This document shows, one piece after another, positions 9,277 to 63,752 of a stretch of 64,000 bases of DNA; position 1 is the stretch's first letter, and each line of letters opens with the position of its first letter. A program made the translations under genes and the position numbers. Source of the DNA: an uncultured virus (IMG/VR IMGVR_UViG_3300046385_000116) (lineage: Duplodnaviria; Heunggongvirae; Uroviricota; Caudoviricetes); the IMG/VR virus record IMGVR_UViG_3300046385_000116. The stretch is one strand, 5' to 3'. Below the pieces are notes generated by a model. It made no database searches, had not been told where the DNA came from, and saw only the letters and a program-made list of their open reading frames with translations.

Positions 9277-9827
9277 TGCTTGTGAAACACAAACACCACA
9301 TAATACCAAAACATATGGGTGGAACAGATGATCCATCCAATCTTATTGAGTTGACCATAGAAGAACATGCGGAAGAACATAGGATGTTATTTGAAAAATA
9401 TGGTAAAGAAGAAGATAGACTTGCATGGTTAGGGTTATCTAAACAAATATCTAAAGTTGAATTGTTGATTGAAATTAGAAAATCTGAATCATATAAACAA
9501 AAACACAAAAAAGCTGTAAATGATCCACAATATAAAAAAAGAATGAGTGAATTGTTTTCTGGCAAAAACCATCCAATGTATGGTAAAAAACACACCGAAG
9601 AATCTAAACAAAAAATTAGGCAAAAAAGAAAAAATCAAATTTTTACTTCCGAACAAATAGAAAAAAGAACAAAAAAATTATATAAATCATTACAAACACC
9701 GGATGGAATATTCGAAAGTCGTCAAAAAGCTGCTGAATATTATAATGTGGATCCTGCCACATTAAACCATCGGATGAAAACAAAACCAACTGAATATTAT
9801 TATATAAAGAAAGTGAAAAAAATATGA
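9273..9827 (+). mobile_element. free-standing HNH homing endonuclease with NUMOD3-like DNA-binding repeats
   Basis: HKHHIIPKHMGGTDDPSNLIELTIEEHAEEH (HNH) and GKNHPMYGKKHTEESKQKI (NUMOD3). Overlaps both flanking genes by 4 nt. Confidence 0.9.
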
Positions 9828-11497
9828 GATTTCATGTGTTATCGTTACCACATACAGTTTCAAGTAAAGAGTATGTAGCTTGTGCTTATACACAAAAGGC
9901 AGTTAAATTTGCCAAGATGATGACGGATAGAGGACATACTGTTATACATTATGGTCATGAAGATTCCGATTTACAATGTACAGAACACGTGACTGTAACA
10001 ACAAACAAAGATTTAGAAATTGCATATGGCAATTATGATTGGCGTAAAAACTTTTTTAAGTTTGACACGGGTGACCACGCATATCAAACATTTTATAAGA
10101 ACGCAATTATAGAAGTTGGTAAAAGAAAACAACCTAACGATTTTATTTTACCGTTTTGGGGTGCAGGAGTAAGACCTGTTTGTGATGCACATCCAGATTT
10201 AATTTGTGTAGAACCAGGAATTGGTTATGCTGGTGGCCATTGGGCTCGTTGGAAGATTTTTGAATCATATGCAATCTATCATGCATATTATGGATTAACG
10301 GCAGTAGGTCAATGCAAACAGGATTGGTATGATGTTGTCATTCCGAATTATTTTAATCCTGACGATTTTGAATATGCACCTCAAAAGAAAGAAGATTATT
10401 ATTTATTTTTAGGTAGAGTGTATACAGGTAAGGGTGTAGAAATTGCCATACAAGTAACAGAAAAAATAGGTGCAAAATTAATTATTGCTGGACAGAATCC
10501 AGATAATATGGAATTTCCATCTCATGTTGAATTTGTAGGTTATGCTGATATACCAAAAAGAAAAGAATTGATGTCGAAGGCTAAAGCAGCTTTTGTTCCA
10601 TCACAGTATGTAGAACCTTTTGGTGGTGTTCAAGTTGAATGTTTGTTTTCCGGCACACCAACAATCACAACAGATTGGGGTTCATTTACAGAAAACAATA
10701 TTCATGGTGTAACAGGTTATCGTTGCAGAACATTTGACCAATTTGTATGGGCTGCAAAGAACATTGACAAAATTAAACCATCAGATTGCCGACAGTTTGC
10801 AATTAATAATTTTTCATTGGAGGCTGTTGCTGCCAAGTATGAAGAATATTTCCAAATGGTAATGGATGTTTATGGTAAACAAGGTTGGTATGAACCTCAC
10901 CCTGAAAGACAAAATCTCGATTGGTTGAAAAAAGAATATCCGTACATGGAAGAAAAGATTGATTATGAAGCAATCTACAAAGAAGAAAGACCATTTGCTG
11001 ATAGATTGGCGACATGGATTAAAGATGAGATTCAACCTAAAAAAGTATTAGATTTAGGTTCAGGACCAGGAATTCATGTGTATGCTTTAGATGATGCTGG
11101 TGTAAATGTGATGGGTGTTGATATTGATGAAAGAGTTGATGGTAGAAATCTATTAGTTAAAGACAGTTTATTGGAACTTAATGGTAAGTATACTGCCGAC
11201 ACAGTTATCTGTTTTGAGGTTCTAGAACATATAGACCCACAGTATGGTGATGAAGCTGTACGAAACATTTATGAAGCTATGGAACCAGGTGGAACATTAA
11301 TATTTACAGCTGCACAACCAGGTCAAGGTGGTGTAGGACATATCAATAATAGACCAAAGAGGTTTTGGGCAGAAAAATTTGAAAATATTGGTCTAAAACA
11401 AGACAAGAAATTAGCTAAAAAGTTAGTAGAATATTGTAGACAAGGATATCATATGGGATGGTTCGTTAATAATGTTTTGATATTTCATAAGACATAA
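9824..11497 (+). CDS. GT4 (GT-B) glycosyltransferase fused to a class I SAM methyltransferase
   Basis: FLGRV..GKG and EPFGGVQVE...GTP GT4 motifs; C-terminal VLDLGSGPG ... CFEVLEHI ... GHIN methyltransferase domain. Confidence 0.88.
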
Positions 11498-19509: not shown

Positions 19510-22500
19510 ATGTTATTGAATTATATTCTAACGCCTTCAGCAAATGTAGTAAACAATTCAAGTAATACATCACTATATGTTTGGGGTGATAATTCTGGTG
19601 GTCAATTAGGCACCGGTGATATTTCAACTTTGTCATATACTCAGCCTGTTGCGGTTACCAACTTTCTTCAAGGCAATTCATTTTCACAAATCAAAGCAGG
19701 TAGTTCTCATGCGTTAGCAATCGATACCAATAATCGTTTGTGGGCATGGGGTGATAATACTTTTGGCCAAATTGGTGATGGTACAAGTGGTTCAGCAGCC
19801 GATGCTTGGAAACCAGAACTGATTGAGATTGGTGGTAATTGGTACAGAGAAGTTTCCGCTGGTGGTTCACATACGGCTGCCATAAAAAATTCAGACAGTT
19901 CTCTATGGATATGGGGACTGAATAGTTCTGGTCAATTGGGTGATGGTACAACAATTAATAAATCTAGTCCGGTACAAGTTACGGCACAAGGTGATATTAC
20001 CGACACTAGAGGTTCATGGAAATATATTTCGTCCATTTCTTCTCATACAGCAGCTATTCGTTCTTCTGATTCTTCATTATGGGCATGGGGACTTAATGCT
20101 AATGGCCAATTAGGTGATGGAACCACCATAGATAAATTTTCTCCAGTTAAGATAGGAAATAGTAGCTGGAGTATGGTAAATGGTGGTGAATTAAATACAA
20201 CTGCTATAGACATTACTGGTGCTTTATATGCATGGGGACTTAATACTTCTGGCCAACTAGGTGATGGTACCACCATAGACAAATCCTCTCCAATACAAAT
20301 AGGAAGTTCTAGCTGGAGTATGGTGAGTGGTGGTGGTTCTCATACAACTGCTATAGACATTACTGGTGCTTTATATGCATGGGGATTTAATAGTTCTGGT
20401 CAATTAGGTGATGGTACCACCACCAACAAATCTTCTCCAGTAAAAATAGGAAGTTCCAGCTGGAGTATGGTAAGTGGTGGTGGTTTACATACAATTGCTA
20501 TAGACATTACTGGTGCTTTATATGCATGGGGAAGTAATCTTTATGGTCAACTAGGTGATGGTACCACCATAGACAAATCTTCTCCAATTAAAATAGGAAG
20601 TTCCAGCTGGAGTATGATAAGTGGTGGTGGTTCTTTAAATACAACTGCTATAGACATTACTGGTGCTTTATATGCATGGGGAAGAAATAATTTTGGTCAA
20701 TTAGGTGATAATACCACCACAAACAAATCTTCTCCAATTAAAATAGGAAGTAATAGCTGGAATATGGTGAATACTGGTAATCACTCAGCAGCTATTGATT
20801 CCACTGGTGCTTTATATACATGGGGAGCTGACACTTCTGGACAATTAGGTGATGGTACCACCACCAATAAATCTTCTCCAGTAAAAATAGGAAGTAGTAG
20901 CTGGAGTATGGTAAGTGTAGGTGTGGTATATTCATTAGCTATAGATGTTACTGGTGCTTTATATGCATGGGGAAGTAATGGTAATGGTCGATTAGGTAAC
21001 AATGACCCACAATATTATGTGTATAATAAATCTTCTCCTGTTTTGGTAGGCCAATATCCATATCAAAGAACAATCACAATCACTTCATGGAAATCTGTAA
21101 GTTGTGGAGTATTACACACAACTGCTATTGCAAATACAGGTATATTGTATACATGGGGAAGTAATGTTTCTGGTCAATTAGGTGATGGAACCACCATTGA
21201 TAAATCTTCTCCAGTGAAGATAGGAAGTAGTAGCTGGGGTATGATAAGTTCTGGTTGGGACAATTCAATGTCTATTGATATTACTGGTGCTTTGTATGCA
21301 TGGGGAGGTAATGGTTCTGGATCATTGGGGGATGGCACCACAGTATTCAAATCCTCTCCAGTAAAAATAGGAAATTCTAGCTGGAGTATGGTGAGTGCTG
21401 GATGGAATAACTTCACAACGGCTATAGATATTACTGGTGCTTTGTATGCATGGGGAAGTAACACTTATGGTACATTAGGAGATGGCACCAAAGTAAATAA
21501 ATCCAGTCCAATAAAAATAGGAAGTTCCAGCTGGAGTATGGTGAGTGCAGGTTATATAGCCGCTTCAGCTATTGATATTACTGGCGCTTTATATACATGG
21601 GGATATAATCTATATGGATCCTTAGGTGATGGTACCACCATTAATAAATCTTCTCCAGTAAAAATAGGAAGTTCTAGTTGGAATATAATAAGTTCTGGTA
21701 AGAATGGTCAAACGGCAGCTATTGACATTACAAGTTCTCTTTATACATGGGGATTAAATTTTAATGGTGAAATGGGAGATGGAACTCTGTTATCCAAATC
21801 ATCTCCTGTAAAAATAGGAACATCGAGTTGGAGTTTAACGAGCGCAGGATTTTATCACACCACGGCAATCAATTCTATTGGTTCAATTTATACATGGGGT
21901 AGAAATACTTCTGGACAATTAGGTGACGGCACCAAAGTAAATAAATCCTCTCCAGTCCAAATCGGACTTTCACAAACATTCTTCAAAGGTATTGGTACTG
22001 CCAATAATACATCACTTGCAATCACAACAGATAATAAACTGTATTCTTGGGGTGATAACTCTCAAGGTCAAGTGGGTGATGGTACAACGGTCAATCGTTC
22101 AAGACCAACACAAATTTACGGAAATTATTTAAGTAATTCTGGTGATTCTTGGAACATGATGATGAGTTCTGGAACACACACAGTAGCTATTCGTTCATCA
22201 GATAATTCATTGTGGATGTGGGGACATAATGGTAATGGTGCATTGGGTGATGGTACCACCACATCCAAATCTTATCCAGTAAAAATAGGATTAAATAGTT
22301 GGAATGTAGTGAATGTGGGTGTCTTCCATACACTGGCGATAAATTCTACTGGTGCTTTATACACATGGGGAAGTTCGGCATCTGGTGCTTTAGGTGATGG
22401 CGCCAACACCAATAAATCTTCTCCAGTATTAATCACAGTTGCAAAACCATTAACATACGATTCATGGAAAATAATATCTTCTGGAAATTCACACACAGTA

Positions 22501-25500
22501 GCCATTCGTGCATCAGATAGTTCATTGTGGGCATGGGGATTGAATACTACTGGTCAAGTAGGAGATGGTACTATTGGTAGTAAATCTTCTCCAGTAAAAA
22601 TAGGAAGTTCTAGCTGGAGTATGGTATTAGCTACTTCCAATTATTCAATAGCTATTGATATCACTGGTGCTTTGTATACATGGGGAAATAATAATAATGG
22701 TCAATTAGGTGATGGTACCACCATCAACAAATCTTCTCCAGTAAAAATTGGAAGTTCCAGTTGGAGTGTATTGGCTAGTTGTGGCGTGAGTGGACATTCA
22801 GCAGCTATTGATATTACTGGTGCTCTATATGCATGGGGAAGTAATAATGCTGGTCAGTTAGGAGATGGTACTACCGTATCTAAATCTTCTCCAGTAAAAA
22901 TAGGAAGTAGTAGCTGGAGTATGGTAGACGCAGGAGTCACACACACAATAGCTATTGATATAACTGGTGCTCTATATGCATGGGGAAGTAATAATATCGG
23001 TGCATTAGGTGATGGTACCACCATTAATAAATCTTCTCCAATACAAATAGGAAGTAGTAGCTGGACTATGGCAAGAGCAGGAAATCCCGAATCAGCAGCT
23101 ATTGATACCACTGGTGCTTTATATGTATGGGGATGGAATACTGCTGGTCAATTAGGAGATGGAACCACCATTAATAAATCTTCTCCAGTAAAAATAGGAA
23201 GTAGTAGTTGGAGTATGGTGAGTTCTGGAAGTACACATACAGTAGCTATAGATGTTACTGGTGCTTTGTATACATGGGGTGGTAATAGTAATGGTGCATT
23301 AGGTGATGGTACTACCGCATCTAAATCTTCTCCTGTAAAAATAGGAAGTTCCAGCTGGAGTATGGTGAGTACCACTTGGACCAATACATCAGCTATTGGT
23401 GTTGATGGCAATCTTTATATATGGGGAAATAATAGTTTAGGTCAAATAGGTGATGGTACTGCCATAGACAAATCTTCTCCAGTTCAAGTAGCAACAACAT
23501 ATGAAAGAATAAATTCATGGTCAGCAGTTGCTGGAGGTTCTTCTTATTCAGCAGCTATCGATTATTCAGGTTCTCTATGGACATGGGGATTGAATAGTTC
23601 AGGACAATTAGGTGATGGTACAACTGCAAACAGAAGTTATCCTGTAAATATTCCAGGTATATGGAGTTCAGTTGATATTGACCCGATTGGTTCAACTACA
23701 GCAGCCATAGATTCAACCGGTGCTTTATACACATGGGGTTCTAATGCTTCCGGTCAATTAGGTGATGTTACACAAGTAAACAAATCTTCTCCAGTAAAAA
23801 TAGGAAGTAGTAGTTGGAGTATAGCAACAGTAAGTAATGTAAACTCTGCAGCTATAGATATCACTGGTGCTTTATACACATGGGGTGGTAATAGTAATGG
23901 TGCATTAGGTGATGGTACCACTATCAACAAATCTTCTCCAGTACAAATAGGAACAAGTAGCTGGAGTAAAGTTGGTGTGGGTCAACACTGTATAGCAGCT
24001 ATAGATTCAACCGGTGCTTTATATACATGGGGTCAAAATAGTTCTGGTCAATTAGGTGATGGTACCACCATAGCCAAATCATCTCCAGTAAAAATAGGAA
24101 GTAGTAGTTGGAGTATGGTTTATGCAAATTTTGCTATAACACACATTAAAGATATAAATGGAATTTTTTATGCAATGGGTGCTTCAAATAGTGATGGACA
24201 ATTAGGTGATGGAACCACCACAAGCAAATCTTCTCCAGTTGTTGTTGGATACGCTTATGCACAAGAAACATCATTCTTACCTGTAGCTTCTTCTGGATAC
24301 GGAAATCATTTCACTGTTCTTGGAGGAAATGCAGCAAGTTATAATCTATATGCATGGGGTGTCAATACAACAGGACAATTAGGTGCAGCATTAGGTGTAA
24401 ACCAATATTCACCAACATCGGCTGTGGATTTGAGAAATAATAATTTTGCTTCAAAAAATCCAGATTCATGGAAACAAGTTTCTAATGGCCAAAATTATAC
24501 ATTAGCAATACGTTCTTCAGATTCATCATTATGGACATGGGGACTTAATACTAGTGGCCAATTAGGTGATGGTACCACAGTATCCAAATCTTCTCCGGTA
24601 AAAATAGGAAGTTCTAGCTGGAGTATGGTAAGTTCTGGCGGATTATACACAGTAGCTATTGATATTACTGGTGCTTTGTATGCATGGGGACAAAATAATA
24701 ATGGTCAACTAGGTGATGGTACCAACACCAGCAAATCTTCTCCTGTAAAAATAGGAAGTTCTAGCTGGAGTATGGTAAGTGCTGGTAGCATACACACATT
24801 GGCAATAGATTCCACTGGTGCTTTGTATGTGTGGGGTAGTAATTCGACAGGTCAATTAGGTGATGGTACCACAGTATCTAAATCTTCTCCAGTAAAAATA
24901 GGAAGTAGTAGTTGGAGTGTGGTGAGTGCTGGTGGTACGCATACAACAGCCATTGACACTAATGGAAGTTTGTATACATGGGGTTATGGTGGTTCTGGTG
25001 CTTTAGGTGATACTACCAGCACCAATAAATCTTCTCCAGTAAAAATAGGAAGTTCCAGCTGGAGTATCGTGGGTGCTAGTTCTCTTCATACCGCAGCTAT
25101 TGATACCACTGGTGCTCTATATGCATGGGGATTCAATAATAGTGGACAGTTAGGTGACGGCACTACTGTTTTTAAATTATCTCCAGTTAAGATAGGAAGT
25201 TCCAGCTGGAGTATGGTGAATAATGGTGAAGATTATACAGCAGCTATTGATGTTACTGGTGCTTTGTATGCATGGGGTACTAGTTTTAATGGTACATTAG
25301 GTGATGGTACCACCACAGCTAAATCTTCTCCAGTTAAAATAGGAAATAGTAGTTGGAGTATGGTGAATGCCGGAAGTTCTCATTCATCAGCTATTGATGT
25401 TACTGGTGCTTTGTATACATGGGGGAATAATGGTTTTGGTGCTTTAGGTGATAATACCACTGTATCTAAATCCAAACCAGTAACAATCATTACAACCAAT

Positions 25501-25839
25501 GCCAATCCATCCAATATAACACAAATAAATACTGGATTATCACACACTTCAATTCTTGATGGTTATTCAATATGGACAATTGGTGGCAATGCTTCAGGAC
25601 AATTAGGTGATGGTACTACTACCAATAAAAATTATTTAACTCGTCAATTTACAGGAATGTCACCAACAGTAACAACAGGTTATACTCATATGGCAGCTAT
25701 TGTAGATAAAACACTTTATACATGGGGTTTAAACACATCACATCAATTGGGTGATGGAACACAAGTAAGCAAATCTTCTCCATTGGTAGTTGGATTACCA
25801 ACACTAGACGAAAACCCAAATCAAGATACTTGGATATAA
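19510..25839 (+). CDS. giant RCC1/BLIP-II repeat beta-propeller protein (41 blades)
   Basis: About 50-aa repeats of consensus GALYAWGxNxxGQLGDGTTxxKSSPVKIGSSSWSMVSxGxxHTxAID; 41 counted by hand. Confidence 0.92.
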   Translation: MLLNYILTPSANVVNNSSNTSLYVWGDNSGGQLGTGDISTLSYTQPVAVTNFLQGNSFSQIKAGSSHALAIDTNNRLWAWGDNTFGQIGDGTSGSAADAWKPELIEIGGNWYREVSAGGSHTAAIKNSDSSLWIWGLNSSGQLGDGTTINKSSPVQVTAQGDITDTRGSWKYISSISSHTAAIRSSDSSLWAWGLNANGQLGDGTTIDKFSPVKIGNSSWSMVNGGELNTTAIDITGALYAWGLNTSGQLGDGTTIDKSSPIQIGSSSWSMVSGGGSHTTAIDITGALYAWGFNSSGQLGDGTTTNKSSPVKIGSSSWSMVSGGGLHTIAIDITGALYAWGSNLYGQLGDGTTIDKSSPIKIGSSSWSMISGGGSLNTTAIDITGALYAWGRNNFGQLGDNTTTNKSSPIKIGSNSWNMVNTGNHSAAIDSTGALYTWGADTSGQLGDGTTTNKSSPVKIGSSSWSMVSVGVVYSLAIDVTGALYAWGSNGNGRLGNNDPQYYVYNKSSPVLVGQYPYQRTITITSWKSVSCGVLHTTAIANTGILYTWGSNVSGQLGDGTTIDKSSPVKIGSSSWGMISSGWDNSMSIDITGALYAWGGNGSGSLGDGTTVFKSSPVKIGNSSWSMVSAGWNNFTTAIDITGALYAWGSNTYGTLGDGTKVNKSSPIKIGSSSWSMVSAGYIAASAIDITGALYTWGYNLYGSLGDGTTINKSSPVKIGSSSWNIISSGKNGQTAAIDITSSLYTWGLNFNGEMGDGTLLSKSSPVKIGTSSWSLTSAGFYHTTAINSIGSIYTWGRNTSGQLGDGTKVNKSSPVQIGLSQTFFKGIGTANNTSLAITTDNKLYSWGDNSQGQVGDGTTVNRSRPTQIYGNYLSNSGDSWNMMMSSGTHTVAIRSSDNSLWMWGHNGNGALGDGTTTSKSYPVKIGLNSWNVVNVGVFHTLAINSTGALYTWGSSASGALGDGANTNKSSPVLITVAKPLTYDSWKIISSGNSHTVAIRASDSSLWAWGLNTTGQVGDGTIGSKSSPVKIGSSSWSMVLATSNYSIAIDITGALYTWGNNNNGQLGDGTTINKSSPVKIGSSSWSVLASCGVSGHSAAIDITGALYAWGSNNAGQLGDGTTVSKSSPVKIGSSSWSMVDAGVTHTIAIDITGALYAWGSNNIGALGDGTTINKSSPIQIGSSSWTMARAGNPESAAIDTTGALYVWGWNTAGQLGDGTTINKSSPVKIGSSSWSMVSSGSTHTVAIDVTGALYTWGGNSNGALGDGTTASKSSPVKIGSSSWSMVSTTWTNTSAIGVDGNLYIWGNNSLGQIGDGTAIDKSSPVQVATTYERINSWSAVAGGSSYSAAIDYSGSLWTWGLNSSGQLGDGTTANRSYPVNIPGIWSSVDIDPIGSTTAAIDSTGALYTWGSNASGQLGDVTQVNKSSPVKIGSSSWSIATVSNVNSAAIDITGALYTWGGNSNGALGDGTTINKSSPVQIGTSSWSKVGVGQHCIAAIDSTGALYTWGQNSSGQLGDGTTIAKSSPVKIGSSSWSMVYANFAITHIKDINGIFYAMGASNSDGQLGDGTTTSKSSPVVVGYAYAQETSFLPVASSGYGNHFTVLGGNAASYNLYAWGVNTTGQLGAALGVNQYSPTSAVDLRNNNFASKNPDSWKQVSNGQNYTLAIRSSDSSLWTWGLNTSGQLGDGTTVSKSSPVKIGSSSWSMVSSGGLYTVAIDITGALYAWGQNNNGQLGDGTNTSKSSPVKIGSSSWSMVSAGSIHTLAIDSTGALYVWGSNSTGQLGDGTTVSKSSPVKIGSSSWSVVSAGGTHTTAIDTNGSLYTWGYGGSGALGDTTSTNKSSPVKIGSSSWSIVGASSLHTAAIDTTGALYAWGFNNSGQLGDGTTVFKLSPVKIGSSSWSMVNNGEDYTAAIDVTGALYAWGTSFNGTLGDGTTTAKSSPVKIGNSSWSMVNAGSSHSSAIDVTGALYTWGNNGFGALGDNTTVSKSKPVTIITTNANPSNITQINTGLSHTSILDGYSIWTIGGNASGQLGDGTTTNKNYLTRQFTGMSPTVTTGYTHMAAIVDKTLYTWGLNTSHQLGDGTQVSKSSPLVVGLPTLDENPNQDTWI
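24732..24837 (+). repeat. 106-nt exact direct repeat (second copy at 28062-28167)
   Basis: Identical stretch shared by the two RCC1 ORFs, compared by eye. Confidence 0.8.
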
Positions 25840-28800
25840 ATGCCATTAAATAGTCAACAACTTATCATAAGAAAATCTGATAATGCTCTGTATGCATGGG
25901 GTGTTGGTTTTGGTGGTCAATTAGGTGACAATACTTCTGTTAATAAATCTTCTCCAGTACAAATAGGAACAAGTAGTTGGAGTTCTGTTTCAGCAGGAGC
26001 AACAATGGGTTCAGCCATTGATGTTAATGGTATTCTATACGCTTGGGGTAGTAATAACGGAAATTTGGGTGATAATACTGTTGCCAGTAAATCTTCTCCA
26101 GTATTAATCGGAGCTGCTAAACCTTTAACATATGATTCGTGGAAAGAAATTTCATCTGGTGGTTCACACACTGTAGCAATCCGCTCTTCCGATTCTTCAT
26201 TATGGACATGGGGTCAAAATAGTGTTGGCCAATTAGGTGATGGTACCACCATAGCCAAATCATCTCCAGTAAAAATAGGAAGTAGTAGTTGGAGTATGGT
26301 AAGTGCTGGAGGATTTCATACATTAGTTATCGATATCACTGGTGCTTTATATACATGGGGTAGAGGTAATGAAGGTCAATTAGGTGATGGTACCACCATT
26401 AACAAATCTTCTCCAGTACAAATAGGAAGTTCCAGCTGGAGTATGGTGAATGCCGGAAGTTCTCATTCAGCAGCTATAGATACTACTGGTTCTTTGTATA
26501 CATGGGGTTATAATACTAACGGTCAATTAGGTGATGGTACCACCACCAATAGGTCATCTCCAGTACAAATAGGAAGTAGTAGCTGGAGTATGGTGAGTGG
26601 CGGTGTTGTTCACACAGTAGCCATCGATGTTACTGGTGCTTTATATACGTGGGGACTTGGTAGTAATGGTCGATTGGGTGATGGTACCACCATTAACAAA
26701 TCTTCTCCAGTACAAATAGGAAGTTTCAGCTGGAGTATGGTGAGTGCTAGTAGTGGTCATTCGACAGCTATAGATATCACTGGTGCTTTATATGCATGGG
26801 GAAATAATTCATTTGGTCAATTAGGTGATGGATCCACCGTAGGCAAATCTAGTCCAGTAAAAATAGGAAGTTCCAGCTGGAGTATGGTGACTGTTGGTGA
26901 TAATGATTACACATCCGCTATTGATATTACTGGTGCTTTGTATGCATGGGGATTTAATGGTAGTGGCCAATTAGGTGATGGTACCACCACATCCAAATCT
27001 TCTCCAGTGAAAATTGGAAGTTCCAGCTGGAGTATGGTAAGTGATGGATTCACATATACAATGGCTATTGATATCACAGGTGCTTTATATGCATGGGGAC
27101 TTAATTCGAATAGCCAATTAGGTGATGGTACAGCCATCAATAAATCCTCTCCTGTACAAGTTGCTACGACATACGAAACATTAAATTCATGGACAGCTGT
27201 TTCTGCTGGAGTAAACCAAATTGCAGAGATTGCTTATAATAATAATTTATGGACACAAGGACAAAATACTGTTGGCCAATTAGGTGATGGCACAACTGCA
27301 AATAGAAGTTATCCAGTTCAAGTGTATTATAATGTTCCTTCCGTGTATGATTCATGGAAGTCCATATCTCTTGGTGGTGACCACGTTGTCGCTATTCGGT
27401 CTTCTGATTCTTCTTTGTGGGCATGGGGAGATAACCTTCGAGGACAATTGGGTGATGGAACTCAAACAGATAAATTATGGCCAGTAAAAATAGGAAGTAG
27501 TAGCTGGAGTATGGTGAGTGCTGGTTATTCACATACAGCAGCTATTGATATTACTGGTGCTTTATATACATGGGGAATTAATACTGGTGGTCGATTAGGT
27601 GATGGTACCACGACACAAAGATTATCTCCGGTAAAAATAGGAAATAGTAGCTGGAGTATGGTGAGTGGTGGTCATGGTGGTTACTCATCAGCTATTGATA
27701 TTACTGGTGCTTTATATATGTGGGGTAATAATAGTACTGGTGAATTAGGTGATGGTACTACCATAGATAAATCTTCTCCAGTAAAAATAGGAAGTAATAG
27801 CTGGAGTAAGGTAAATAGTGGTGCTAATCATACATTAGCTATAGATTCCACAGGAGCTCTATATGCTTGGGGTGGCAATGTAGCTGGTCAATTAGGTGAT
27901 AGAACAACTATCAATAAATCTTCTCCAATACAAATAGGAACAAGTAGCTGGAGTATGGTTGAATGTGGATATTCTAATAGTTTTGCAATAGATTCTACTG
28001 GAGCTCTTTATGCATGGGGACAAAATAATATTGGTCAATTAGGTGATAATACCGGCTTAACCAAATCTTCTCCTGTAAAAATAGGAAGTTCTAGCTGGAG
28101 TATGGTAAGTGCTGGTAGCATACACACATTGGCAATAGATTCCACTGGTGCTTTGTATGTGTGGGGTTACAATGCTCAAGGACAATTAGGTGATGGAACG
28201 ACCATAGAAAAATTTTCTCCAGTAAAAATTGGTAGTTCTAGTTGGAGTGTTGTAGGTGCTGGTGCTTATGGTTCTGGAGGTATAACTTCTGATGGTGTTT
28301 TATATACATGGGGTCTTAATAACTCTGGCCAATTAGGACAATATAATTTAATAGACAGAAGTTCACCAGTTCAAGTTGCAACCAGTTTTGCACAAATAAA
28401 TTCATGGTCACAGGTTTCTGTAGGAAATTCATTTGTGGCCGCATTGAATACACAAAAACTTTTATACACATGGGGTCTTAGTAATTCTGGCCAATTAGGT
28501 GATGGTCTAAATGCAAATAGATTTTTTCCTATGTTAATTTCAGAATCAAGTTGGAACTTTGTGACTGTTGGTGGCACACATGGAGCTGCAATTGATACGA
28601 CAGGAAATTTATATACATGGGGTCAAAATGGCAATGGCCAATTAGGTGATAGTACTGCTACAAATCGTCCATCACCAGTATTAATTACTGCGGTTGACCC
28701 AATTCAGTATGATTCATGGAAACAAATTTCGGTAGGTTATTCTTTTACATCAGCCATTCGTGCTTCAGATTCTTCATTGTGTGCATGGGGAGTTAATATT

Positions 28801-30321
28801 GTAGGTCAATTAGGTGATGGCACCACCGTATCCAAATCTTCTCCAGTAAAAATAGGAAATAGTAGCTGGAGTATGGTGAGTGCTGGTCCTTCACATTCAG
28901 CAGCTATAGATTCCACTGGTGCTTTATATGCATGGGGATTTAATGCTTCTGGCCAATTAGGTGATGGAACCACCATAAACAAATCTTCTCCAGTAAAAAT
29001 AGGAAGTTCTAGCTGGAGTATAGTAGAAGTTAGTAATTCTAATTCAATGGCTATTGATATTACTGGTGCTTTGTATACATGGGGACTTAATTCGTCTGGT
29101 CAATTAGGTGATGGTACCACAGTATCCAAATCTTCTCCAGTTAAAATAGGAAGTAGTAGCTGGAGTAAAGTTGGTAGAGGATTATCACATTCAGCAGCTA
29201 TCGATATCACTGGCGCTTTGTATGCATGGGGTGGTAATTCTGTTGGCAATTTAGGTGATGGTACCACCACAGATAAATCTTCTCCAGTAAAAATAGGAAA
29301 TTCTAGCTGGAGTATGGTAAGTGCTGGATTCACATATACAACAGCCATTGATTCTACTGGTGCTTTATATACATGGGGTGGTAATATTGGTGCACAATTA
29401 GGTGATGGTACCACCGTAAACAAATCTTCTCCAGTTAAAATTGGAAGTTCTAGCTGGAGTATAGTGAGTCCTGGCATTTCTTATACATTAGCCATTGATT
29501 CTACTGGCACTTTATATGCATGGGGAAATAATTCATTTGGTCAATTAGGTGATGGTACCACCACCAGCAAATCTTCTCCAGTACAAATAGGAAGTAGTAA
29601 ATTTGTAAAAGCATACGCAGGAGGAACACATCAAGCTTCTTTGACTATTAATGGAGATTTATATACATGGGGTAATAATAATGCTGGTCAATTAGGTCAT
29701 GGTGAACTTGTCAGTAAATCTTCTCCTGTACAAGTTGCCACCACATACAATATTATTTCTTCATGGACTATGGTAGGTTGTGGTAATGATTTTACTGCTA
29801 TGCTTTCCTATGATGGAAATATTTACACAACAGGTTATAATCTTTATGGTATGTTGGGTGATGGAAATACAGCAAGTAGAGGTTATCCAAATAAAATTTC
29901 ACCAATTAAAACACCGGTTGGATATGGAACTTCTCCTGTCTTTGTGAGAATTGATGTTGGTGCATCTCATGTGGCTGCCATTACAGGATGGGGTACTTTG
30001 TACACATGGGGATACAATACTTCTGGCCAACTTGGTTTAAATTCAACCGTTTCATATATTCCTGTTCCAACAAATATTAATACATTGTCAGCATCACCAA
30101 CATTAGTTGCGGCTGGAATATCACACACAGTTGTTTCAGGACAATATGCAAATACAAACTATCTGTATGCAGTAGGTGGTAATACTCTTGGACAATTAGG
30201 TGATGGTACTACACTATCTACAACATTTTCAGGTAATCAATCGTTTGAACAAGTTCCTAAAAACACATATAAATATATCAATGATTTAATTGCTGGTGGA
30301 AACTTCACCATTAAGAAATAG
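25840..30321 (+). CDS. giant RCC1/BLIP-II repeat beta-propeller protein (29 blades), in frame with the preceding ORF
   Basis: Same repeat consensus; 29 counted by hand. ATG directly follows the upstream TAA in the same frame. Confidence 0.92.
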   Translation: MPLNSQQLIIRKSDNALYAWGVGFGGQLGDNTSVNKSSPVQIGTSSWSSVSAGATMGSAIDVNGILYAWGSNNGNLGDNTVASKSSPVLIGAAKPLTYDSWKEISSGGSHTVAIRSSDSSLWTWGQNSVGQLGDGTTIAKSSPVKIGSSSWSMVSAGGFHTLVIDITGALYTWGRGNEGQLGDGTTINKSSPVQIGSSSWSMVNAGSSHSAAIDTTGSLYTWGYNTNGQLGDGTTTNRSSPVQIGSSSWSMVSGGVVHTVAIDVTGALYTWGLGSNGRLGDGTTINKSSPVQIGSFSWSMVSASSGHSTAIDITGALYAWGNNSFGQLGDGSTVGKSSPVKIGSSSWSMVTVGDNDYTSAIDITGALYAWGFNGSGQLGDGTTTSKSSPVKIGSSSWSMVSDGFTYTMAIDITGALYAWGLNSNSQLGDGTAINKSSPVQVATTYETLNSWTAVSAGVNQIAEIAYNNNLWTQGQNTVGQLGDGTTANRSYPVQVYYNVPSVYDSWKSISLGGDHVVAIRSSDSSLWAWGDNLRGQLGDGTQTDKLWPVKIGSSSWSMVSAGYSHTAAIDITGALYTWGINTGGRLGDGTTTQRLSPVKIGNSSWSMVSGGHGGYSSAIDITGALYMWGNNSTGELGDGTTIDKSSPVKIGSNSWSKVNSGANHTLAIDSTGALYAWGGNVAGQLGDRTTINKSSPIQIGTSSWSMVECGYSNSFAIDSTGALYAWGQNNIGQLGDNTGLTKSSPVKIGSSSWSMVSAGSIHTLAIDSTGALYVWGYNAQGQLGDGTTIEKFSPVKIGSSSWSVVGAGAYGSGGITSDGVLYTWGLNNSGQLGQYNLIDRSSPVQVATSFAQINSWSQVSVGNSFVAALNTQKLLYTWGLSNSGQLGDGLNANRFFPMLISESSWNFVTVGGTHGAAIDTTGNLYTWGQNGNGQLGDSTATNRPSPVLITAVDPIQYDSWKQISVGYSFTSAIRASDSSLCAWGVNIVGQLGDGTTVSKSSPVKIGNSSWSMVSAGPSHSAAIDSTGALYAWGFNASGQLGDGTTINKSSPVKIGSSSWSIVEVSNSNSMAIDITGALYTWGLNSSGQLGDGTTVSKSSPVKIGSSSWSKVGRGLSHSAAIDITGALYAWGGNSVGNLGDGTTTDKSSPVKIGNSSWSMVSAGFTYTTAIDSTGALYTWGGNIGAQLGDGTTVNKSSPVKIGSSSWSIVSPGISYTLAIDSTGTLYAWGNNSFGQLGDGTTTSKSSPVQIGSSKFVKAYAGGTHQASLTINGDLYTWGNNNAGQLGHGELVSKSSPVQVATTYNIISSWTMVGCGNDFTAMLSYDGNIYTTGYNLYGMLGDGNTASRGYPNKISPIKTPVGYGTSPVFVRIDVGASHVAAITGWGTLYTWGYNTSGQLGLNSTVSYIPVPTNINTLSASPTLVAAGISHTVVSGQYANTNYLYAVGGNTLGQLGDGTTLSTTFSGNQSFEQVPKNTYKYINDLIAGGNFTIKK

Positions 30322-36906: not shown

Positions 36907-37485
36907 ATGAAACTATATAGAATTTATAAATGCACAAATTCAATTAATGGTAAAACTTATATAGGTTTCACCAATAAAGAATTGAATAAGAGGATTACAG
37001 AACATAAATGTGCAGCTAAAAATGGTAGTGAATATCTGATACATAAATCAATAAGAAAATATGGTTTAGAATCATTTGTATGGGAATGTTTATACGAATC
37101 TACAGATAAAGAATATGTGTTGACGTTTATGGAAAAATATTTTATACATGAATACAATTCTTATTATGAGAATGGTTTTGGTTATAATATGACTTTTGGT
37201 GGTCAAGGAGGTATGTTAGGTAAAAAACATACAGACAAAACAAAACAAAAATTAAAAGAAGCAAGAGCAAAAAGAACTGTGGAACCTATGTTAGGTAAAA
37301 AACATAGTAATTCTTCTAAAGAAAAAATGAGTTTAACTAGACTTAATAATCCCGATAAAGTATCTCAAGCAAAAAAAGCAGGTCAAATTTCAGCTGAAAA
37401 ACGTAAAAATGATCCAGAATATAGATTGAAACTTTCACAAAAAATAAAAGAATGTTGGGCATTAAGAAAGGCAATGGGTAACTAA
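36907..37485 (+). mobile_element. free-standing GIY-YIG (seg-like) homing endonuclease with NUMOD3 repeats
   Basis: RIYKCTNSINGKTYIGFT ... R..EH ... GYNMT.GG; two GKKH(T/S) NUMOD3 motifs. Confidence 0.9.
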
Positions 37486-57331: not shown

Positions 57332-57900
57332 GTAATGAATTAATTATTGATACAGGTAGTAATGTAGTAAAAGAAAATCGGACAGAACCATTAACTGTTT
57401 TTAATGAAAAACATCCTATGTTGTCGGCTGTAATGCCTGAATATGATGTATCTTCTTTACCTAATTCACATATGAATGAATTGACGGCAAGACTTAAATT
57501 GACCATGAAGTTATATTCAGGCATCGGCTTGTCTGCTAATCAATGTGCCGTGCAGGAAAGAGTATTTGTCATCGGCACAGACCATTTTCAAATGGTTTGT
57601 ATCAACCCTAAAGTTATTAACAAGTCGGCAGAAGAAACAAAACGCAAAGAAGGTTGCCTCTCTAGTCCAGGCTTATTTGTTACAATACCAAGAAGTAACT
57701 CAATAGATGTTGAATACTATACCGAACTAGGTGAATTAAAACAACTCACACTTGATGGTGTAACAGCTCAATGCTTTCAACATGAACTTGACCACTTGAA
57801 TGGTATCACATTTACCTCTAAAGCTGGTCCTGTTGCGTTACAATTAGCAAAGAAGAAACAACAGAAATTAATTAAAAAAGTAAAGAAACTATACAAATAA
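57328..57900 (+). CDS. def: peptide deformylase
   Basis: GIGLSANQ, EGCLS, QHELDHLNG. Confidence 0.95.
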   Translation: MSNELIIDTGSNVVKENRTEPLTVFNEKHPMLSAVMPEYDVSSLPNSHMNELTARLKLTMKLYSGIGLSANQCAVQERVFVIGTDHFQMVCINPKVINKSAEETKRKEGCLSSPGLFVTIPRSNSIDVEYYTELGELKQLTLDGVTAQCFQHELDHLNGITFTSKAGPVALQLAKKKQQKLIKKVKKLYK

Positions 57901-59243
57901 TGGCATATGCATTTGACCCTAAAGATGATGTAGAAGCACAATGGCAGAAGTGGCAAGAAGCCAACCCACCATCAACATATTTAAATATTGATGAGGGTGA
58001 TTTGCGTGAAACAGTTATCCGAGATTTAACTTATGTTTCTAAAATGGATGTGAAAGAATACACACTTTACCAAAAGTGGTGTGAAATTCAACAGAAATAT
58101 CCGACACAAAGAAACATGACTGTCTTTGGGGAAGAAGAAGTATTCCTTGTTGACCCATCACAACAGAAACTTGTTGATGAGGTAAAGAGTAACATTTGGG
58201 TTCCACAGAATCCAGATTCTTACCTTGACTTAGAGCCTGTATTGGAATATACAGACGATTCTGGTGAAACAACTCGCATCGCAGTTGACGGCACAGAGGT
58301 TAAGGTTGACAGAAAACGAAATAAAGAACTACCTGAAAAGTGGAATACTATCAGAAACTTTATTTCTACAATGAAGAACAATAGTAATATTGGCCGTAAT
58401 CTAAACTTTATCGTTAAAGATAATAAAACAGGTAAATATCTTGGTGTGATTTGTATCTCATCAGACTTTCTTGATTTAACTCCACGTGATGACAAGATTG
58501 GTTGGCCAAGAGATTTGAAAACTACTGGCGGTATGATTAATCACACTGCTATTGGTTCTACTATTGTTCCATTCCAACCACTAGGTTATAACTATGTGGG
58601 TGGTAAACTACTAGCTTTACTTTGCCTTTCAGATGAAGTGCAAAATCTTTGGAAGAAACAATATGGTGATACACTTATCGGTGTAACTACAACATCATTG
58701 TATGGCAAAACTAAAGCTGGTGGTCTTTCTCAGTATGATAACCTTGACCATTGGCAACCGATGGGATTCACAAGTGGTTCAGTATCATTTGAACCAGAAC
58801 GTGATACTCGTTATAAGATTCGTGAATGGTTAAAGGCTAATCATACAAGAAAATACTTTGAGTGGTATGTTGCGAAGAAGCCTTCAGGACAACCACACAA
58901 ACGTGACCATAAGAATCGGTCTCTAGCGTTTACATACTCTAAGATGAGTGTGCCAAAAGAACTAATCAGAACCGAACACGCAAGAGGTATATACTTTAGC
59001 CCGTTATACGACAACTCCTATGAATTCTTGCGAGGTGAGATTAAAGAAACTGAATTGGTAAAATCTTTTGATACATCATACGAATCCCTAGTCAAGATTT
59101 GGAAAGAGAAACACGCTAGAGGCCGAATTGGTTTTCTAAAGAAGAAAGATAAAGTATCAAGTGAAGTTTTATTTTATGATGACCTCATATATTTGGATTG
59201 GGAACAGACCAAGGCAAAATACTTAGGGCAAGTCGGTAGATAA
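57900..59243 (+). CDS. DUF4338/DruA-family (Mom-like, GNAT-fold) protein
   Basis: GRNLNFIVKD..TGKYLGVI.ISSD..DL..RD..IGW; VP.QP.GYN.VGGKLLALL; TTTSLYGK...SQY; W..MGFTSG. Motifs recognised by eye. Confidence 0.7.
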   Translation: MAYAFDPKDDVEAQWQKWQEANPPSTYLNIDEGDLRETVIRDLTYVSKMDVKEYTLYQKWCEIQQKYPTQRNMTVFGEEEVFLVDPSQQKLVDEVKSNIWVPQNPDSYLDLEPVLEYTDDSGETTRIAVDGTEVKVDRKRNKELPEKWNTIRNFISTMKNNSNIGRNLNFIVKDNKTGKYLGVICISSDFLDLTPRDDKIGWPRDLKTTGGMINHTAIGSTIVPFQPLGYNYVGGKLLALLCLSDEVQNLWKKQYGDTLIGVTTTSLYGKTKAGGLSQYDNLDHWQPMGFTSGSVSFEPERDTRYKIREWLKANHTRKYFEWYVAKKPSGQPHKRDHKNRSLAFTYSKMSVPKELIRTEHARGIYFSPLYDNSYEFLRGEIKETELVKSFDTSYESLVKIWKEKHARGRIGFLKKKDKVSSEVLFYDDLIYLDWEQTKAKYLGQVGR

Positions 59244-59265
59244 AAACAATTGCCTCGAAAAGGGC

Positions 59266-59294
59266 TTGATTTTAATAAAAAAGTCCTATATAAT
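59266..59294 (+). promoter_or_regulatory. sigma70-type promoter driving the tRNA-like RNA
   Basis: TTGATT (59266-59271)-17 nt-TATAAT (59289-59294); predicted start about 59301. Confidence 0.75.
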
Positions 59295-59303
59295 TATATC
59301 AAT

Positions 59304-59371
59304 GCGGTGTAGTACAGACTAGAGTAGGTGTCCAATCTACTTGCTTGGTGCGAATCCAAGACACCGCTCCA
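59304..59371 (+). tRNA. non-canonical tRNA-Gly(TCC)-like RNA with reduced D-arm and encoded CCA
   Basis: Acceptor GCGGTGT/ACACCGC plus T plus CCA; anticodon arm GTAGG-TGTCCAA-TCTAC; T arm CTTGG-TGCGAAT-CCAAG; only 13 nt between the acceptor and anticodon stems. Confidence 0.85.
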
Positions 59372-59378
59372 AATTCTG

Positions 59379-59403
59379 AACCCTACCTTTCGGTAGGGTT
59401 TTT
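59379..59403 (+). terminator. rho-independent terminator after the tRNA-like RNA
   Basis: AACCCTACC-TTTC-GGTAGGGTT followed by TTT. Confidence 0.85.
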
Positions 59404-59464
59404 CTTTATTGCCTCAAATAAATACCAGTTGTGTTATACTATCTTCTTTGAATAGGAGAATAAT

Positions 59465-59653
59465 ATGTATGATGGCCAATTAATCGAAGATTATTCCCAT
59501 ACCCTTATCGATCAAGAAGAAATGCACTTTTATTCTTGTATTGCCGATGTCTTGGATGCCTTTAAAACTCACGGAGTAGACCATGTCCTCAATGAGGTAT
59601 CTAAAAATACCGTTATGAAACAACAGCTTAGAGAGTGGCTTGCCAAACAGTGA
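59465..59653 (+). CDS. hypothetical protein
   Basis: AGGAG SD; extended -10 element TGTTATACT upstream. Confidence 0.55.
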   Translation: MYDGQLIEDYSHTLIDQEEMHFYSCIADVLDAFKTHGVDHVLNEVSKNTVMKQQLREWLAKQ

Positions 59654-63413: not shown

Positions 63414-63458
63414 ATCTGAGGTTTGGACTACACCTTAGATTCTTTTGAAAGTAGTTCA
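63414..63458 (+). promoter_or_regulatory. H-type RNA pseudoknot in the 5' leader
   Basis: Stem 1 ATCTGAGGT/ACCTTAGAT; stem 2 TGGACTAC/GTAGTTCA. Confidence 0.6.
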
Positions 63459-63479
63459 TTTAATTTATGGAGTTTTACA

Positions 63480-63752
63480 ATGTCTGCAAAATCTAAAGTA
63501 TTAGCTTACCTTTCAAAGGACAGCGCTTATAACACACTAACAGCTGCTAAAATGCAATCTATGTTTGGTGTTCAGAACCCTTCAGCAACAATCGACACGT
63601 TGCGTAAAGAAGGTCACGCTATCTATTTGAATTCACGTATTAATGCCAATGGTGAGAAGATTTCTTTCTACCGTTTAGGCACACCAACTAAGCGTATCGT
63701 TGCCGCTGGTATCTTGGCACTACGTCAACACGGTGTTGCAACATTCGCCTAA
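63480..63752 (+). CDS. small winged-helix/HTH nucleic-acid-binding protein
   Basis: KVLAYL ... LTAAKM.S.FGV.NPSATI..LRKEG.AIY ... YRLG. GGAG SD at 63469. Confidence 0.7.
   Translation: MSAKSKVLAYLSKDSAYNTLTAAKMQSMFGVQNPSATIDTLRKEGHAIYLNSRINANGEKISFYRLGTPTKRIVAAGILALRQHGVATFA

What the first reader, a model, noticed from the sequence alone, without database searches (positions are those of the whole stretch)
57900..59403. Mom-like (DUF4338/DruA) enzyme plus a private, ribosome-incompetent tRNA-Gly: candidate tRNA-dependent DNA glycylation system
Seen: a 447-aa DUF4338/DruA-type ORF in the DNA replication/recombination block (after gp47, gp46 and def). It is followed 60 nt later by a 68-nt tRNA-Gly-like gene with its own promoter (59266-59294) and terminator (59379-59403). 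Established (from recall): DUF4338/DruA proteins share the C-terminal W..xG.T.G region of Mom-family GNAT-fold proteins; phage Mu Mom makes N6-carbamoylmethyl-adenine and has been reported to take glycine from Gly-tRNA-Gly; staphylococcal Fem GNAT ligases use dedicated non-proteinogenic tRNA-Gly species. Inference: the phage supplies a tRNA that host GlyRS can charge but that EF-Tu and the ribosome largely ignore. This would channel activated glycine to the adjacent enzyme to hypermodify phage DNA (anti-restriction) or another target. I know of no description of such an enzyme plus dedicated-tRNA pair in phages.
Basis: partly seen in the sequence, partly recalled or inferred. Interest (0 to 1): 0.92.

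Follow-up and report, generated by a model that had tools for sequence, protein, structure and literature searches.

The report
Phage GNAT enzyme with private tRNA-Gly mimic
A freshwater T4-like phage carries a DruA-type acyltransferase gene followed by its own stripped-down glycine-tRNA look-alike, a conserved pair that may supply activated glycine outside protein synthesis.

Summary
ORF 57900-59243 (447 aa) is a Pfam DruA/DUF4338 protein. Sixty nt downstream lie a sigma-70-like promoter, a 68-nt RNA (59304-59371) and a terminator.

The RNA is no chance fold. The 66 of 76 close viral loci that extend far enough downstream carry one copy directly after the gene. There are 36 distinct sequences, and 18 of 23 pairs of a four-helix cloverleaf covary. 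The ends GCGG...CCGC-U-CCA and a CC in the second loop never change. These match the published bacterial GlyRS identity set. A model of the family picks out canonical tRNA-Gly genes in related phage genomes. Standard tRNA finders and Rfam miss the RNA.

The protein has a GNAT fold. Phage Mu Mom, which takes glycine from Gly-tRNA, is the nominal best structural match (Z 9.3), but it ties with ordinary GNATs. Profile comparison shows no Mom kinship. A glycine-rich motif A looks like a CoA site.

Best reading (about 0.4): the RNA is a glycine carrier charged by host GlyRS, unused in translation, that feeds the adjacent GNAT; DNA is a plausible target. Charging, transfer and target are all untested. 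The pair is confined to one phage clade. I found no published description.

The parts
57900..59243 (+). DruA/DUF4338-type GNAT-fold protein, 447 aa. The GNAT core spans about residues 106-392. The N-terminal ~105 residues have no structural match.
   Evidence: ORF. Pfam DruA 1.2e-18. PADLOC DruA1 5.5e-17. AF2 model with pLDDT 93, pTM 0.90. VIA-align gives GNATs at Z 7.7-9.3, with Mu Mom 8bv8_B on top (Z 9.3, rmsd 4.0, 172 aligned). The N-terminal domain alone gives a best Z of 3.6.
59266..59294 (+). Sigma-70-like promoter of the RNA gene (TTGATT, 17-nt spacer, TATAAT).
   Evidence: 10 of 12 consensus matches. The region had 9 promoter-like sites against 10.5 expected from shuffles, so the scan alone is weak. 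A -10-like box ends 1-20 nt before the RNA in 55 of 66 related loci.
59304..59371 (+). 68-nt tRNA-Gly-like RNA with an encoded UCCA end. Segments: acceptor 59304-59310 with 59361-59367; mini D hairpin 59311-59320; second ('anticodon') hairpin 59322-59342 with UCC in its loop; T-like arm 59344-59360; discriminator U plus CCA 59368-59371.
59378..59411 (+). Intrinsic terminator: a 10-bp stem followed by a T run.
59465..59653 (+). 62-aa ORF with no family match. It follows the RNA in some related loci but not in others. Probably not part of the pair.

Best explanation
Shown: the RNA at 59304-59371 is a descendant of a tRNA-Gly gene. It keeps only the acceptor stem, the U discriminator, the encoded CCA, a T-arm-like hairpin and a CC-bearing second loop.

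Inferred: host glycyl-tRNA synthetase charges it. RNase P and 3' exonucleases process it. Its miniature D arm, non-canonical T loop and irregular 'anticodon' loop keep it out of translation. The adjacent DruA-type GNAT enzyme then uses the glycyl-RNA as its private acyl donor. This is the chemistry shown for Mu Mom, and the logic shown for the staphylococcal Fem ligases with their non-proteinogenic tRNA-Gly.

The acceptor is not known. Phage DNA is the leading guess, which would make this an anti-restriction mark. That guess rests on the gene's place in the replication/recombination block and on the use of this domain in DNA-conflict systems.
For: 1. Linkage. One RNA copy lies on the same strand, 2-69 nt after the stop codon, in 66 of 76 usable close loci. 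In 11 of these the gap is only 2 or 6 nt, so the RNA must be co-transcribed with the gene. The gene that follows the RNA differs between lineages, so the RNA travels with the GNAT gene. The RNA-less close loci that are in the tree (9 of the 10) form one clade with 100% SH-like support. RNA types track the protein tree, with 19 label changes against 54.7 in shuffles.

2. Selection on structure. 86.6% of cells are paired, against 63.8% in shuffles and 42-52% when the partners are slid. 18 of 23 pairs change on both sides.

3. What never changes. G1-C72, C2-G71, G3-C70, G4-C69, U73 and CCA are identical in 36 of 36 distinct sequences. A CC sits in the apical loop of hairpin 2 in 36 of 36. The published bacterial Gly identity set is U73, G1-C72, C2-G71, C35 and C36. 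The GNAT toxin TacT reads U73 plus G71 (PMC9976931 passages).

4. Specific likeness to tRNA-Gly. Model R1 hits 3 of the 4 canonical tRNA-Gly genes of two related phage records (31.8-41.7 bits). It hits only 1 of about 55 other tRNAs (Tyr, E 0.022). All 4 canonical tRNA-Gly genes have the same GCGG..CCGC-U-CCA ends.

5. Not an ordinary tRNA. ARAGORN in bacterial mode of 36. RF00005 does not list it in three related records or in the window. Rfam at gathering thresholds gives 0 matches in 14 RNA-bearing loci. The D loop has GG in only 4 of 36, and no T loop reads UUCRANY. A related complete phage (168.9 kb) has 33 canonical tRNAs, including Gly-UCC and Gly-GCC, in separate arrays, so the RNA is an extra.

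6. Enzyme. It has a GNAT fold, with Mu Mom as the nominal best match and the longest alignment. Mom transfers Gly from Gly-tRNA-Gly to dsDNA (PMC13219725).
Against: - No RNA-level data. The four metatranscriptome contig sets I laid gave nothing informative for the RNA.
- Charging, transfer and target are all untested.
- There is no sequence-level kinship with Mom. The structural match ties with CoA-dependent GNATs.
- By eye, the family keeps a glycine-rich motif-A-like loop: Q226-P-x-G229 ... G234-G235-K236, conserved at 95-100%. It sits right after strand 216-224. In classical GNATs this is where the CoA pyrophosphate binds (recalled). Mom has no glycines there. This favours an acyl-CoA donor.
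- Most of the DruA family has no private RNA: Pelagibacter phages, cyanophages, 121 distant viral loci, 12 loci from bacterial genome assemblies and MAGs, and one close clade. So the enzyme does not need one in principle.
- No DNA-binding domain was identified.
Confidence: 0.4

Rival explanations
1. The RNA is the enzyme's substrate, not its donor. The GNAT uses acetyl- or acyl-CoA and acylates either the glycine on the charged RNA (as the TacT/AtaT toxins do to aminoacyl-tRNA) or a base of the RNA, such as a loop cytidine (as TmcA does).
For: The family keeps a glycine-rich motif-A-like loop and a Y279...GF motif, both typical of CoA-dependent GNATs (the motif reading is by eye and from recall). 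One family member weakly hits Acetyltransf_1 at E 0.0042. TacT3 (6g96, Z 7.9) and another GNAT toxin (7byy, Z 8.1) tie with the other structural hits. TacT recognises exactly U73 plus G71 of tRNA-Gly (PMC9976931). The loop CC is invariant.
Against: There is no obvious use for an N-acylated glycyl-RNA or an acetylated mini-RNA in a lytic phage. Known GNAT toxins pair with protein antitoxins (recalled). RNA-less relatives keep the same conserved residues, so the RNA cannot be the family's general substrate.
Confidence: 0.2
2. The RNA works on its own, and its place next to the GNAT gene is inherited gene order. It might be a sponge for host tRNA-Gly-targeting defence enzymes, or it might act on GlyRS or RNase P.
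For: Phage tRNA genes are mobile, and related phages carry large tRNA arrays. In most lineages the RNA has its own promoter and terminator. One close clade lost the RNA yet kept the enzyme.
Against: The adjacency holds across protein divergence down to 66% identity, while the downstream neighbour changes. In 11 loci the RNA sits 2-6 nt after the stop codon, inside the same transcript. In the three larger RNA-bearing phage records, R1 matched no further mini-RNA away from the gene; its only other matches were canonical tRNAs.
Confidence: 0.15
3. It is a cis-acting tRNA-like element of the GNAT transcript. It would act as a processing or stability signal cut by RNase P, or as a small regulatory RNA whose C-rich loop pairs with a Shine-Dalgarno sequence.
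For: The RNA is co-transcribed in 11 loci. The second-hairpin loops are C-rich.
Against: 55 of 66 loci have a -10-like box just upstream of the RNA. A processing or pairing signal does not explain strict conservation of U73, CCA and four acceptor pairs. I saw no target complementarity, though I did not search for it systematically.
Confidence: 0.1
4. It is a working tRNA-Gly of unusual shape that decodes GGN codons on the ribosome.
For: ARAGORN in mitochondrial mode of 36 as tRNA-Gly (UCC or CCC). D-arm-less tRNAs do function in some mitochondria (recalled; the listing shows such papers).
Against: In 14 of 36 sequences the second loop has an even size (4, 6 or 8 nt) and cannot form a 7-nt anticodon loop. 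U33 is missing in many, including the window's RNA. ARAGORN in bacterial mode of 36. Related phages already carry canonical tRNA-Gly UCC and GCC.
Confidence: 0.05

Closest known systems
Phage Mu Mom (Pfam PF25680; PDB 8bv8)
   Same: A GNAT-fold phage enzyme and the nominal best structural neighbour (Z 9.3, 172 of 202 residues aligned). Mom uses Gly-tRNA-Gly as its acyl donor (PMC13219725). A tRNA-Gly-type partner is implied here too.
   Different: No sequence or profile similarity. Mom uses the host's ordinary tRNA-Gly and has no private RNA. Mom lacks the glycine-rich loop that this family keeps. This protein is 447 aa, with an extra N-terminal ~105 residues and C-terminal helices. It sits with early/middle-type replication genes behind sigma-70-like promoters, whereas mom is a late gene.
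Staphylococcal FemXAB ligases with non-proteinogenic tRNA-Gly
   Same: The logic of a glycine carrier that GlyRS charges and that is withheld from EF-Tu and the ribosome, feeding a GNAT-fold transferase (PMC9976931 passage). FemA is among the structural hits (Z 7.9).
   Different: The Fem tRNAs are full-size cloverleaves encoded by the cell. This RNA is 63-69 nt with a 3-bp D hairpin, it is phage-encoded, and it sits next to the enzyme gene. The FemA match is weak (rmsd 5.9) and ties with other hits.
DruA of type I Druantia (Pfam PF14236, PADLOC DruA1)
   Same: Same protein family by HMM.
   Different: There are no DruB-E neighbours; the gene sits in a T4-like phage replication block. DruA's biochemical function is not described in any paper I found.
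TacT/AtaT-type GNAT toxins
   Same: GNAT enzymes that recognise the tRNA-Gly acceptor end through U73 plus G71. Structural hits at Z 7.9-8.1.
   Different: They acetylate charged tRNA using acetyl-CoA in order to poison translation, and they pair with protein antitoxins.
Aminoacylatable tRNA-like structures of plant RNA viruses, and tmRNA
   Same: Partial tRNA mimics that keep an acceptor end a synthetase can charge (abstracts listed).
   Different: Those are 3' ends of viral genomes or a ribosome-rescue RNA. None is a free small RNA paired with a GNAT gene.

Membership tests
Pfam DruA/DUF4338 (PF14236) | HMM match above the gathering score | tested here: met
   67.7 bits against a cutoff of 27, E 1.2e-18. 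82 of 82 aligned homologs also match. PADLOC DruA1 matches at 5.5e-17.
Type I Druantia defence system | DruA is encoded together with DruB, DruC, DruD and the DruE helicase | tested here: not met
   The five neighbouring proteins have no PADLOC match. The neighbours are gp47/gp46-like, a deformylase, a CobT-like peptidase and CobS-like.
GNAT superfamily | GNAT fold | tested here: met
   AF2 model with pLDDT 93. 20 chains reach Z>=8 and the listed top 50 are nearly all GNATs, spanning model residues 107-392. Foldseek hits are GNATs but weak, with E>=0.013.
GNAT superfamily | Acyl-CoA binding (motif A pyrophosphate loop) | tested here: inconclusive
   Q226-P-x-G229 ... G234-G235-K236 is 95-100% conserved after strand 216-224. 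The reading as motif A is by eye, with no superposition or binding test.
Mom family (PF25680) | Sequence or profile membership | tested here: not met
   None of 82 members hits PF25680 at E<=1. hhalign against Mu Mom gives probability 1%. hhalign against a 43-sequence Mom alignment gives probability 0.14%.
Mom family (PF25680) | Catalytic residues R111, S124, D149, R151 and the HTH-like insertion (PMC13219725) | tested here: inconclusive
   The structural aligner gives ranges only, not residue pairs. No profile alignment exists from which to transfer residues.
Mom family (PF25680) | Transfers Gly from Gly-tRNA-Gly to N6 of adenine in dsDNA | not testable with these tools
   Needs biochemistry or nucleoside LC-MS.
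Canonical bacterial tRNA (Rfam RF00005, ARAGORN) | Detected by standard tRNA models | tested here: not met
   ARAGORN finds 0 in the window and 0 of 36 in bacterial mode. There is no RF00005 match at E<=10 in 59150-59500. RF00005 does not list the RNA in 3 related records. Rfam at gathering thresholds gives 0 matches in 14 loci.
tRNA-Gly (bacterial identity set) | G1-C72, C2-G71, U73, CCA end, C35 and C36 | tested here: met
   The acceptor pairs, U73 and CCA are invariant in 36 of 36, and CC is in the second loop in 36 of 36. The identity set comes from PMC9976931. Caveat: the seed sequences were first picked with a pattern that required these ends, but the model search found no variants.
tRNA-Gly (bacterial identity set) | Is aminoacylated with glycine | not testable with these tools
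   Needs a charging assay.
Non-proteinogenic tRNA-Gly (Fem-type) | Escapes EF-Tu and the ribosome | not testable with these tools
   Only indirect evidence. T-stem pairs 49-65 and 51-63 are unpaired in 16 and 13 of 36 sequences. The D loop lacks GG in 32 of 36.

The most novel reading that the evidence does not exclude
DUF4338/DruA enzymes are aminoacyl-RNA-dependent transferases that glycylate DNA. One clade of abundant freshwater T4-like phages has evolved an orthogonal, translation-proof glycyl carrier RNA to feed the enzyme. This would be the first private donor RNA for a nucleic-acid-modifying enzyme. By extension, DruA of type I Druantia would mark DNA with an amino-acid-derived group, which would give that defence system a self/non-self mark.
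Probability: 0.2. Interest if true: 0.92.

Novelty: new variant of a known kind. Interest (0 to 1): 0.8.

Why it matters
The RNA is a new, well-supported family of tRNA-Gly mimics that standard tRNA finders and Rfam 15 miss. It is common in freshwater viral metagenomes.

Its strict pairing with a DruA/DUF4338 gene gives a direct, cheap experimental handle on a protein family of unknown function that is also a component of type I Druantia defence.

If the glycyl-donor reading is right, it extends the recently established Mom chemistry (DNA modification fed by charged tRNA) to a second, unrelated GNAT family. It would also show that a virus can build its own amino-acid carrier insulated from translation. 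Such a carrier could be useful as an orthogonal acyl-carrier module.

Tried and rejected
- Whole genome of the window: none is held.
- Expression. Four metatranscriptome runs, held as contigs only, covered the 3' part of the GNAT gene and the downstream ORF but nothing over 59332-59466. Contigs cannot show small RNAs or RNA ends, so this says nothing either way.
- N-terminal domain (residues 1-112) folded alone: pLDDT 80, pTM 0.43, best Z 3.6. My guess of a winged helix got no support.
- PDB search by sequence profile: only a spurious Nup58 hit at E 0.061.
- Foldseek against the PDB: only weak GNAT rows, nothing at E<=0.001.
- ESM Atlas: one lead under 0.9, GNAT-phage-like PF22559 at 0.82.
- Search with P0127 in viral contigs: no pattern match.
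- Alignment A3 was too diverse for a locus scan, so I used single proteins instead.
- The first tree run timed out and was repeated with FastTree.
- A conserved hairpin downstream of the Pelagibacter-phage homologs caught my eye as a possible minihelix. Model R1 does not match it, and I dropped it.
- A pattern scan of whole collections for the RNA was not run. The invariant bases are too few, and I estimated thousands of chance hits.
- Complex prediction was not used, because the report claims no protein-protein binding.
Full report
**What is there**

The window is part of a T4-like myophage. It carries tail, terminase, portal, capsid, UvsY, helicase, gp55, gp47 and gp46 genes, all on the + strand. 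The stretch around the finding is held, fully or in large part, by freshwater metagenome runs. The closest cultured relatives are the Pelagibacter myophages HTVC008M and Mosig of the Kyanoviridae, which share the order gp46, deformylase, DUF4338 gene, CobT-like gene, CobS.

ORF 57900-59243 encodes 447 aa. It matches Pfam DruA/DUF4338 (E 1.2e-18) and PADLOC DruA1. Sixty nt after its stop lie three features: a promoter-like site at 59266-59294, a 68-nt RNA at 59304-59371, and a terminator at 59378-59401.

**The RNA is a conserved family**

A search of IMG/VR found 366 relatives of the protein, and the best 80 loci were kept (66-100% identity). Four of these end too early to judge. Of the other 76, 66 have one RNA of 63-69 nt on the same strand, 2-69 nt after the stop codon, and 10 have none.

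There are 36 distinct sequences. A covariance model built from them (R1) finds exactly these 66 plus the window's copy. It finds nothing else in 508 kb of loci.

On the model-fitted alignment, 86.6% of cells are paired. Shuffles give 63.8%, and sliding the partners gives 42-52%. Of the 23 pairs, 18 change on both sides, including 8 of 8 in the second hairpin and 3 of 3 in the mini D hairpin. The alignment was fitted to the structure, which favours it. Per-sequence MFE folds show the same four helices in most of the 36 sequences.

Among near-identical phages (proteins 98% alike), the T stem differs by two compensated pairs between the window and L003.

**What is conserved and what is not**

Conserved:
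- In 36 of 36 sequences: G1-C72, C2-G71, G3-C70, G4-C69, discriminator U, CCA, the G53-C61-equivalent pair, and an A at the fifth T-loop position.
- In 36 of 36 sequences: a CC in the apical loop of hairpin 2, in the context UCC, ACC or CCC.

The seeds were first collected with a pattern that demanded the GCGG and CCGCTCCA ends. The later model search, which tolerates changes, found no variants.

Passages of Giegé and Eriani (PMC9976931) give the bacterial glycine identity set as U73, G1-C72, C2-G71, C35 and C36. They also state that the GNAT toxin TacT reads U73 plus G71, a combination found only in tRNA-Gly.

Not conserved:
- The D arm is a 3-bp hairpin with a 3-4-nt loop, and GG is present in only 4 of 36.
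- No T loop reads UUCRANY.
- The second loop has an even size in 14 of 36 sequences.
- U33 is often missing, as in the window's U-G-U-C-C-A-A.

**It derives from tRNA-Gly but is not an ordinary tRNA**

- ARAGORN finds no tRNA in the window and 0 of 36 in bacterial mode.
- In metazoan-mitochondrial mode ARAGORN of 36: 10 as Gly and 6 as other types. The window's RNA is called 'D-loop mtRNA-Gly(tcc)'.
- Rfam's tRNA model does not match at E<=10.
- No Rfam family reaches its gathering score in 14 RNA-bearing loci.
- In the other direction, R1 hits 3 of the 4 canonical tRNA-Gly genes of two related phage records (41.7, 38.9 and 31.8 bits). It hits only one of about 55 other tRNAs (Tyr, E 0.022).
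- Those canonical genes share the GCGG..CCGC-U-CCA ends.
- A complete related phage (168.9 kb, with terminal repeats) has 33 canonical tRNAs in arrays far from the GNAT gene, including Gly-UCC and Gly-GCC, and carries the mini-RNA as well.

**Linkage to the enzyme gene**

The gene after the RNA differs between lineages. It can be a 62-aa ORF, a small hydrophobic ORF, the CobT-like gene directly, or further promoters. The gene before it is always the GNAT gene.

In 11 loci the RNA starts 2 or 6 nt after the stop codon, so it must be cut out of the mRNA. In 55 of 66 loci a -10-like box ends 1-20 nt upstream of the RNA.

The close RNA-less loci that are in the protein tree (9 of the 10) form one clade (100% SH-like support, FastTree, midpoint root). 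RNA types cluster on the tree.

The pairing stops at this clade. I found no R1 match in any of the following:
- beside the homologs of two Pelagibacter phages and four cyanophages, where the gene sits between gp44 and gp62 or near gp47;
- in 121 loci of more distant viral homologs, apart from one contig already counted;
- in 12 loci from bacterial genome assemblies and MAGs, which also have no tRNA.

**The protein**

The family is large. There are 3757 hits among 90% clusters and 899 representatives of 50% clusters.

With 82 diverse homologs, AlphaFold2 gives pLDDT 93 and pTM 0.90. Foldseek finds only weak GNAT rows. VIA-align against 48,161 chains puts Mu Mom S124A (8bv8_B) first: Z 9.3, rmsd 4.0, 172 of 202 residues, model residues 106-380. 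Dozens of ordinary GNATs follow at Z 8.8-7.7, with FemA at 7.9 and TacT3 at 7.9. So the fold is GNAT, and Mom is only nominally the closest.

At the sequence level there is no link to Mom:
- Pfam Mom is hit by none of 82 members at E<=1.
- hhalign against Mu Mom gives probability 1%.
- hhalign against 43 Mom homologs gives probability 0.14%.

The most conserved residues are Q226, P227, G229, G234, G235, K236, T264-S266, G269, Y279, R362, G363, W401 and R409. By eye, Q226..G229..G234-G235-K236 sits where GNAT motif A binds the pyrophosphate of CoA. Mom has no glycines there. This counts against a Mom-like donor and keeps a CoA-dependent reaction in play.

The N-terminal 112 residues folded alone match nothing.

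**Literature**

- For Silva et al. 2026 (PMC13219725) I read the abstract, passages and the structure section. Mom transfers glycine from Gly-tRNA-Gly to N6-adenine of dsDNA and has a GNAT fold. The main text never mentions DruA, Druantia or tRNA-like RNAs.
- For the 2023 preprint of that work I saw only the search listing.
- One passage of PMC10853773 calls DUF4338 a GNAT domain that is fused to DndF in some systems.
- Searches for DUF4338 (4 papers), for Mom-like + tRNA + GNAT + phage (3 papers), and for phage-encoded tRNA / tRNA-like / D-arm turned up no description of such a pair.
- I read no supplementary files.

**Reading**

The parts selection has kept are the parts that I infer GlyRS, RNase P and an enzyme reading the acceptor end would need. 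The parts it has let drift are those I infer the ribosome needs. Together with the tight, partly co-transcribed linkage to a GNAT gene, and with the Mom and Fem precedents, this makes a private non-translational glycyl carrier the best single explanation (about 0.4). DNA is the favoured acceptor, but that is unproven.

The main rival is a CoA-dependent reaction on the RNA itself (about 0.2). Independent function, a cis or regulatory role, and true decoding are less likely.

Nothing about charging, transfer or product has been shown.

Noticed in passing
L022, L024, L039, L040, L042, L076, L078-L082 (RNA at about locus 3832-3911): In these 11 loci the mini-RNA starts 2 or 6 nt after the GNAT stop codon, with no promoter in between. 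It must be released from the mRNA, presumably by RNase P.
   Followed up: partly
L187:2503-2700: Downstream of a distant DruA-like homolog, a promoter is followed by a G+C-rich stretch of ~200 nt that looks structured. It has no Rfam match at gathering thresholds.
   Followed up: partly
L001:5320-5345 and L002:4815-4840: A short conserved hairpin lies in the spacer before the CobT-like gene of both Pelagibacter phages. It is not related to the mini-RNA by model R1.
   Followed up: partly
L227, L230, L231, L232, L235 (Acidithrix ferrooxidans); L228, L229 (a Desulfobulbaceae MAG): Short DUF4338-like segments recur on five contigs of one genome and at two places in another. This suggests a repeated or mobile element.
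   Followed up: no
L224 and L225: A 98-100% identical DruA-like protein (P0227) sits on short contigs binned into MAGs of two different phyla, Dojkabacteria and Cloacimonadota. These are probably viral contigs binned by mistake.
   Followed up: no
window 19510-25836 and 25840-30318: Two giant adjacent ORFs (2109 and 1493 aa) are full of RCC1-like repeats and also have tail-protein matches.
   Followed up: no
window 9273-9824 and 36907-37482: Homing-endonuclease-like ORFs are inserted among structural genes. At 9824-11494 there is a glycosyltransferase with a methyltransferase-like tail.
   Followed up: no
window 63423-63749: This 109-aa ORF (phrog_4973) looks, by eye, like the ORF that directly follows the DruA-like gene in many of the more distant viral loci (starting MKK.SAK.K.L...GYNTFS). 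This may be plain synteny or a further partner.
   Followed up: no
Record PQ898602.1 (Synechococcus phage S-SCSM2R), hit H59: The DruA-like homolog in this record is annotated 'methylcarbamoylase mom'. It belongs to the DruA-like group, which shows no profile-level kinship to Mom.
   Followed up: no
Record MZ577097.1 (Methylophilales phage Melnitz), hit H12: This T4-like marine phage carries a true Mom homolog (32% identity over 81% of Mu Mom), annotated only as DUF465.
   Followed up: no
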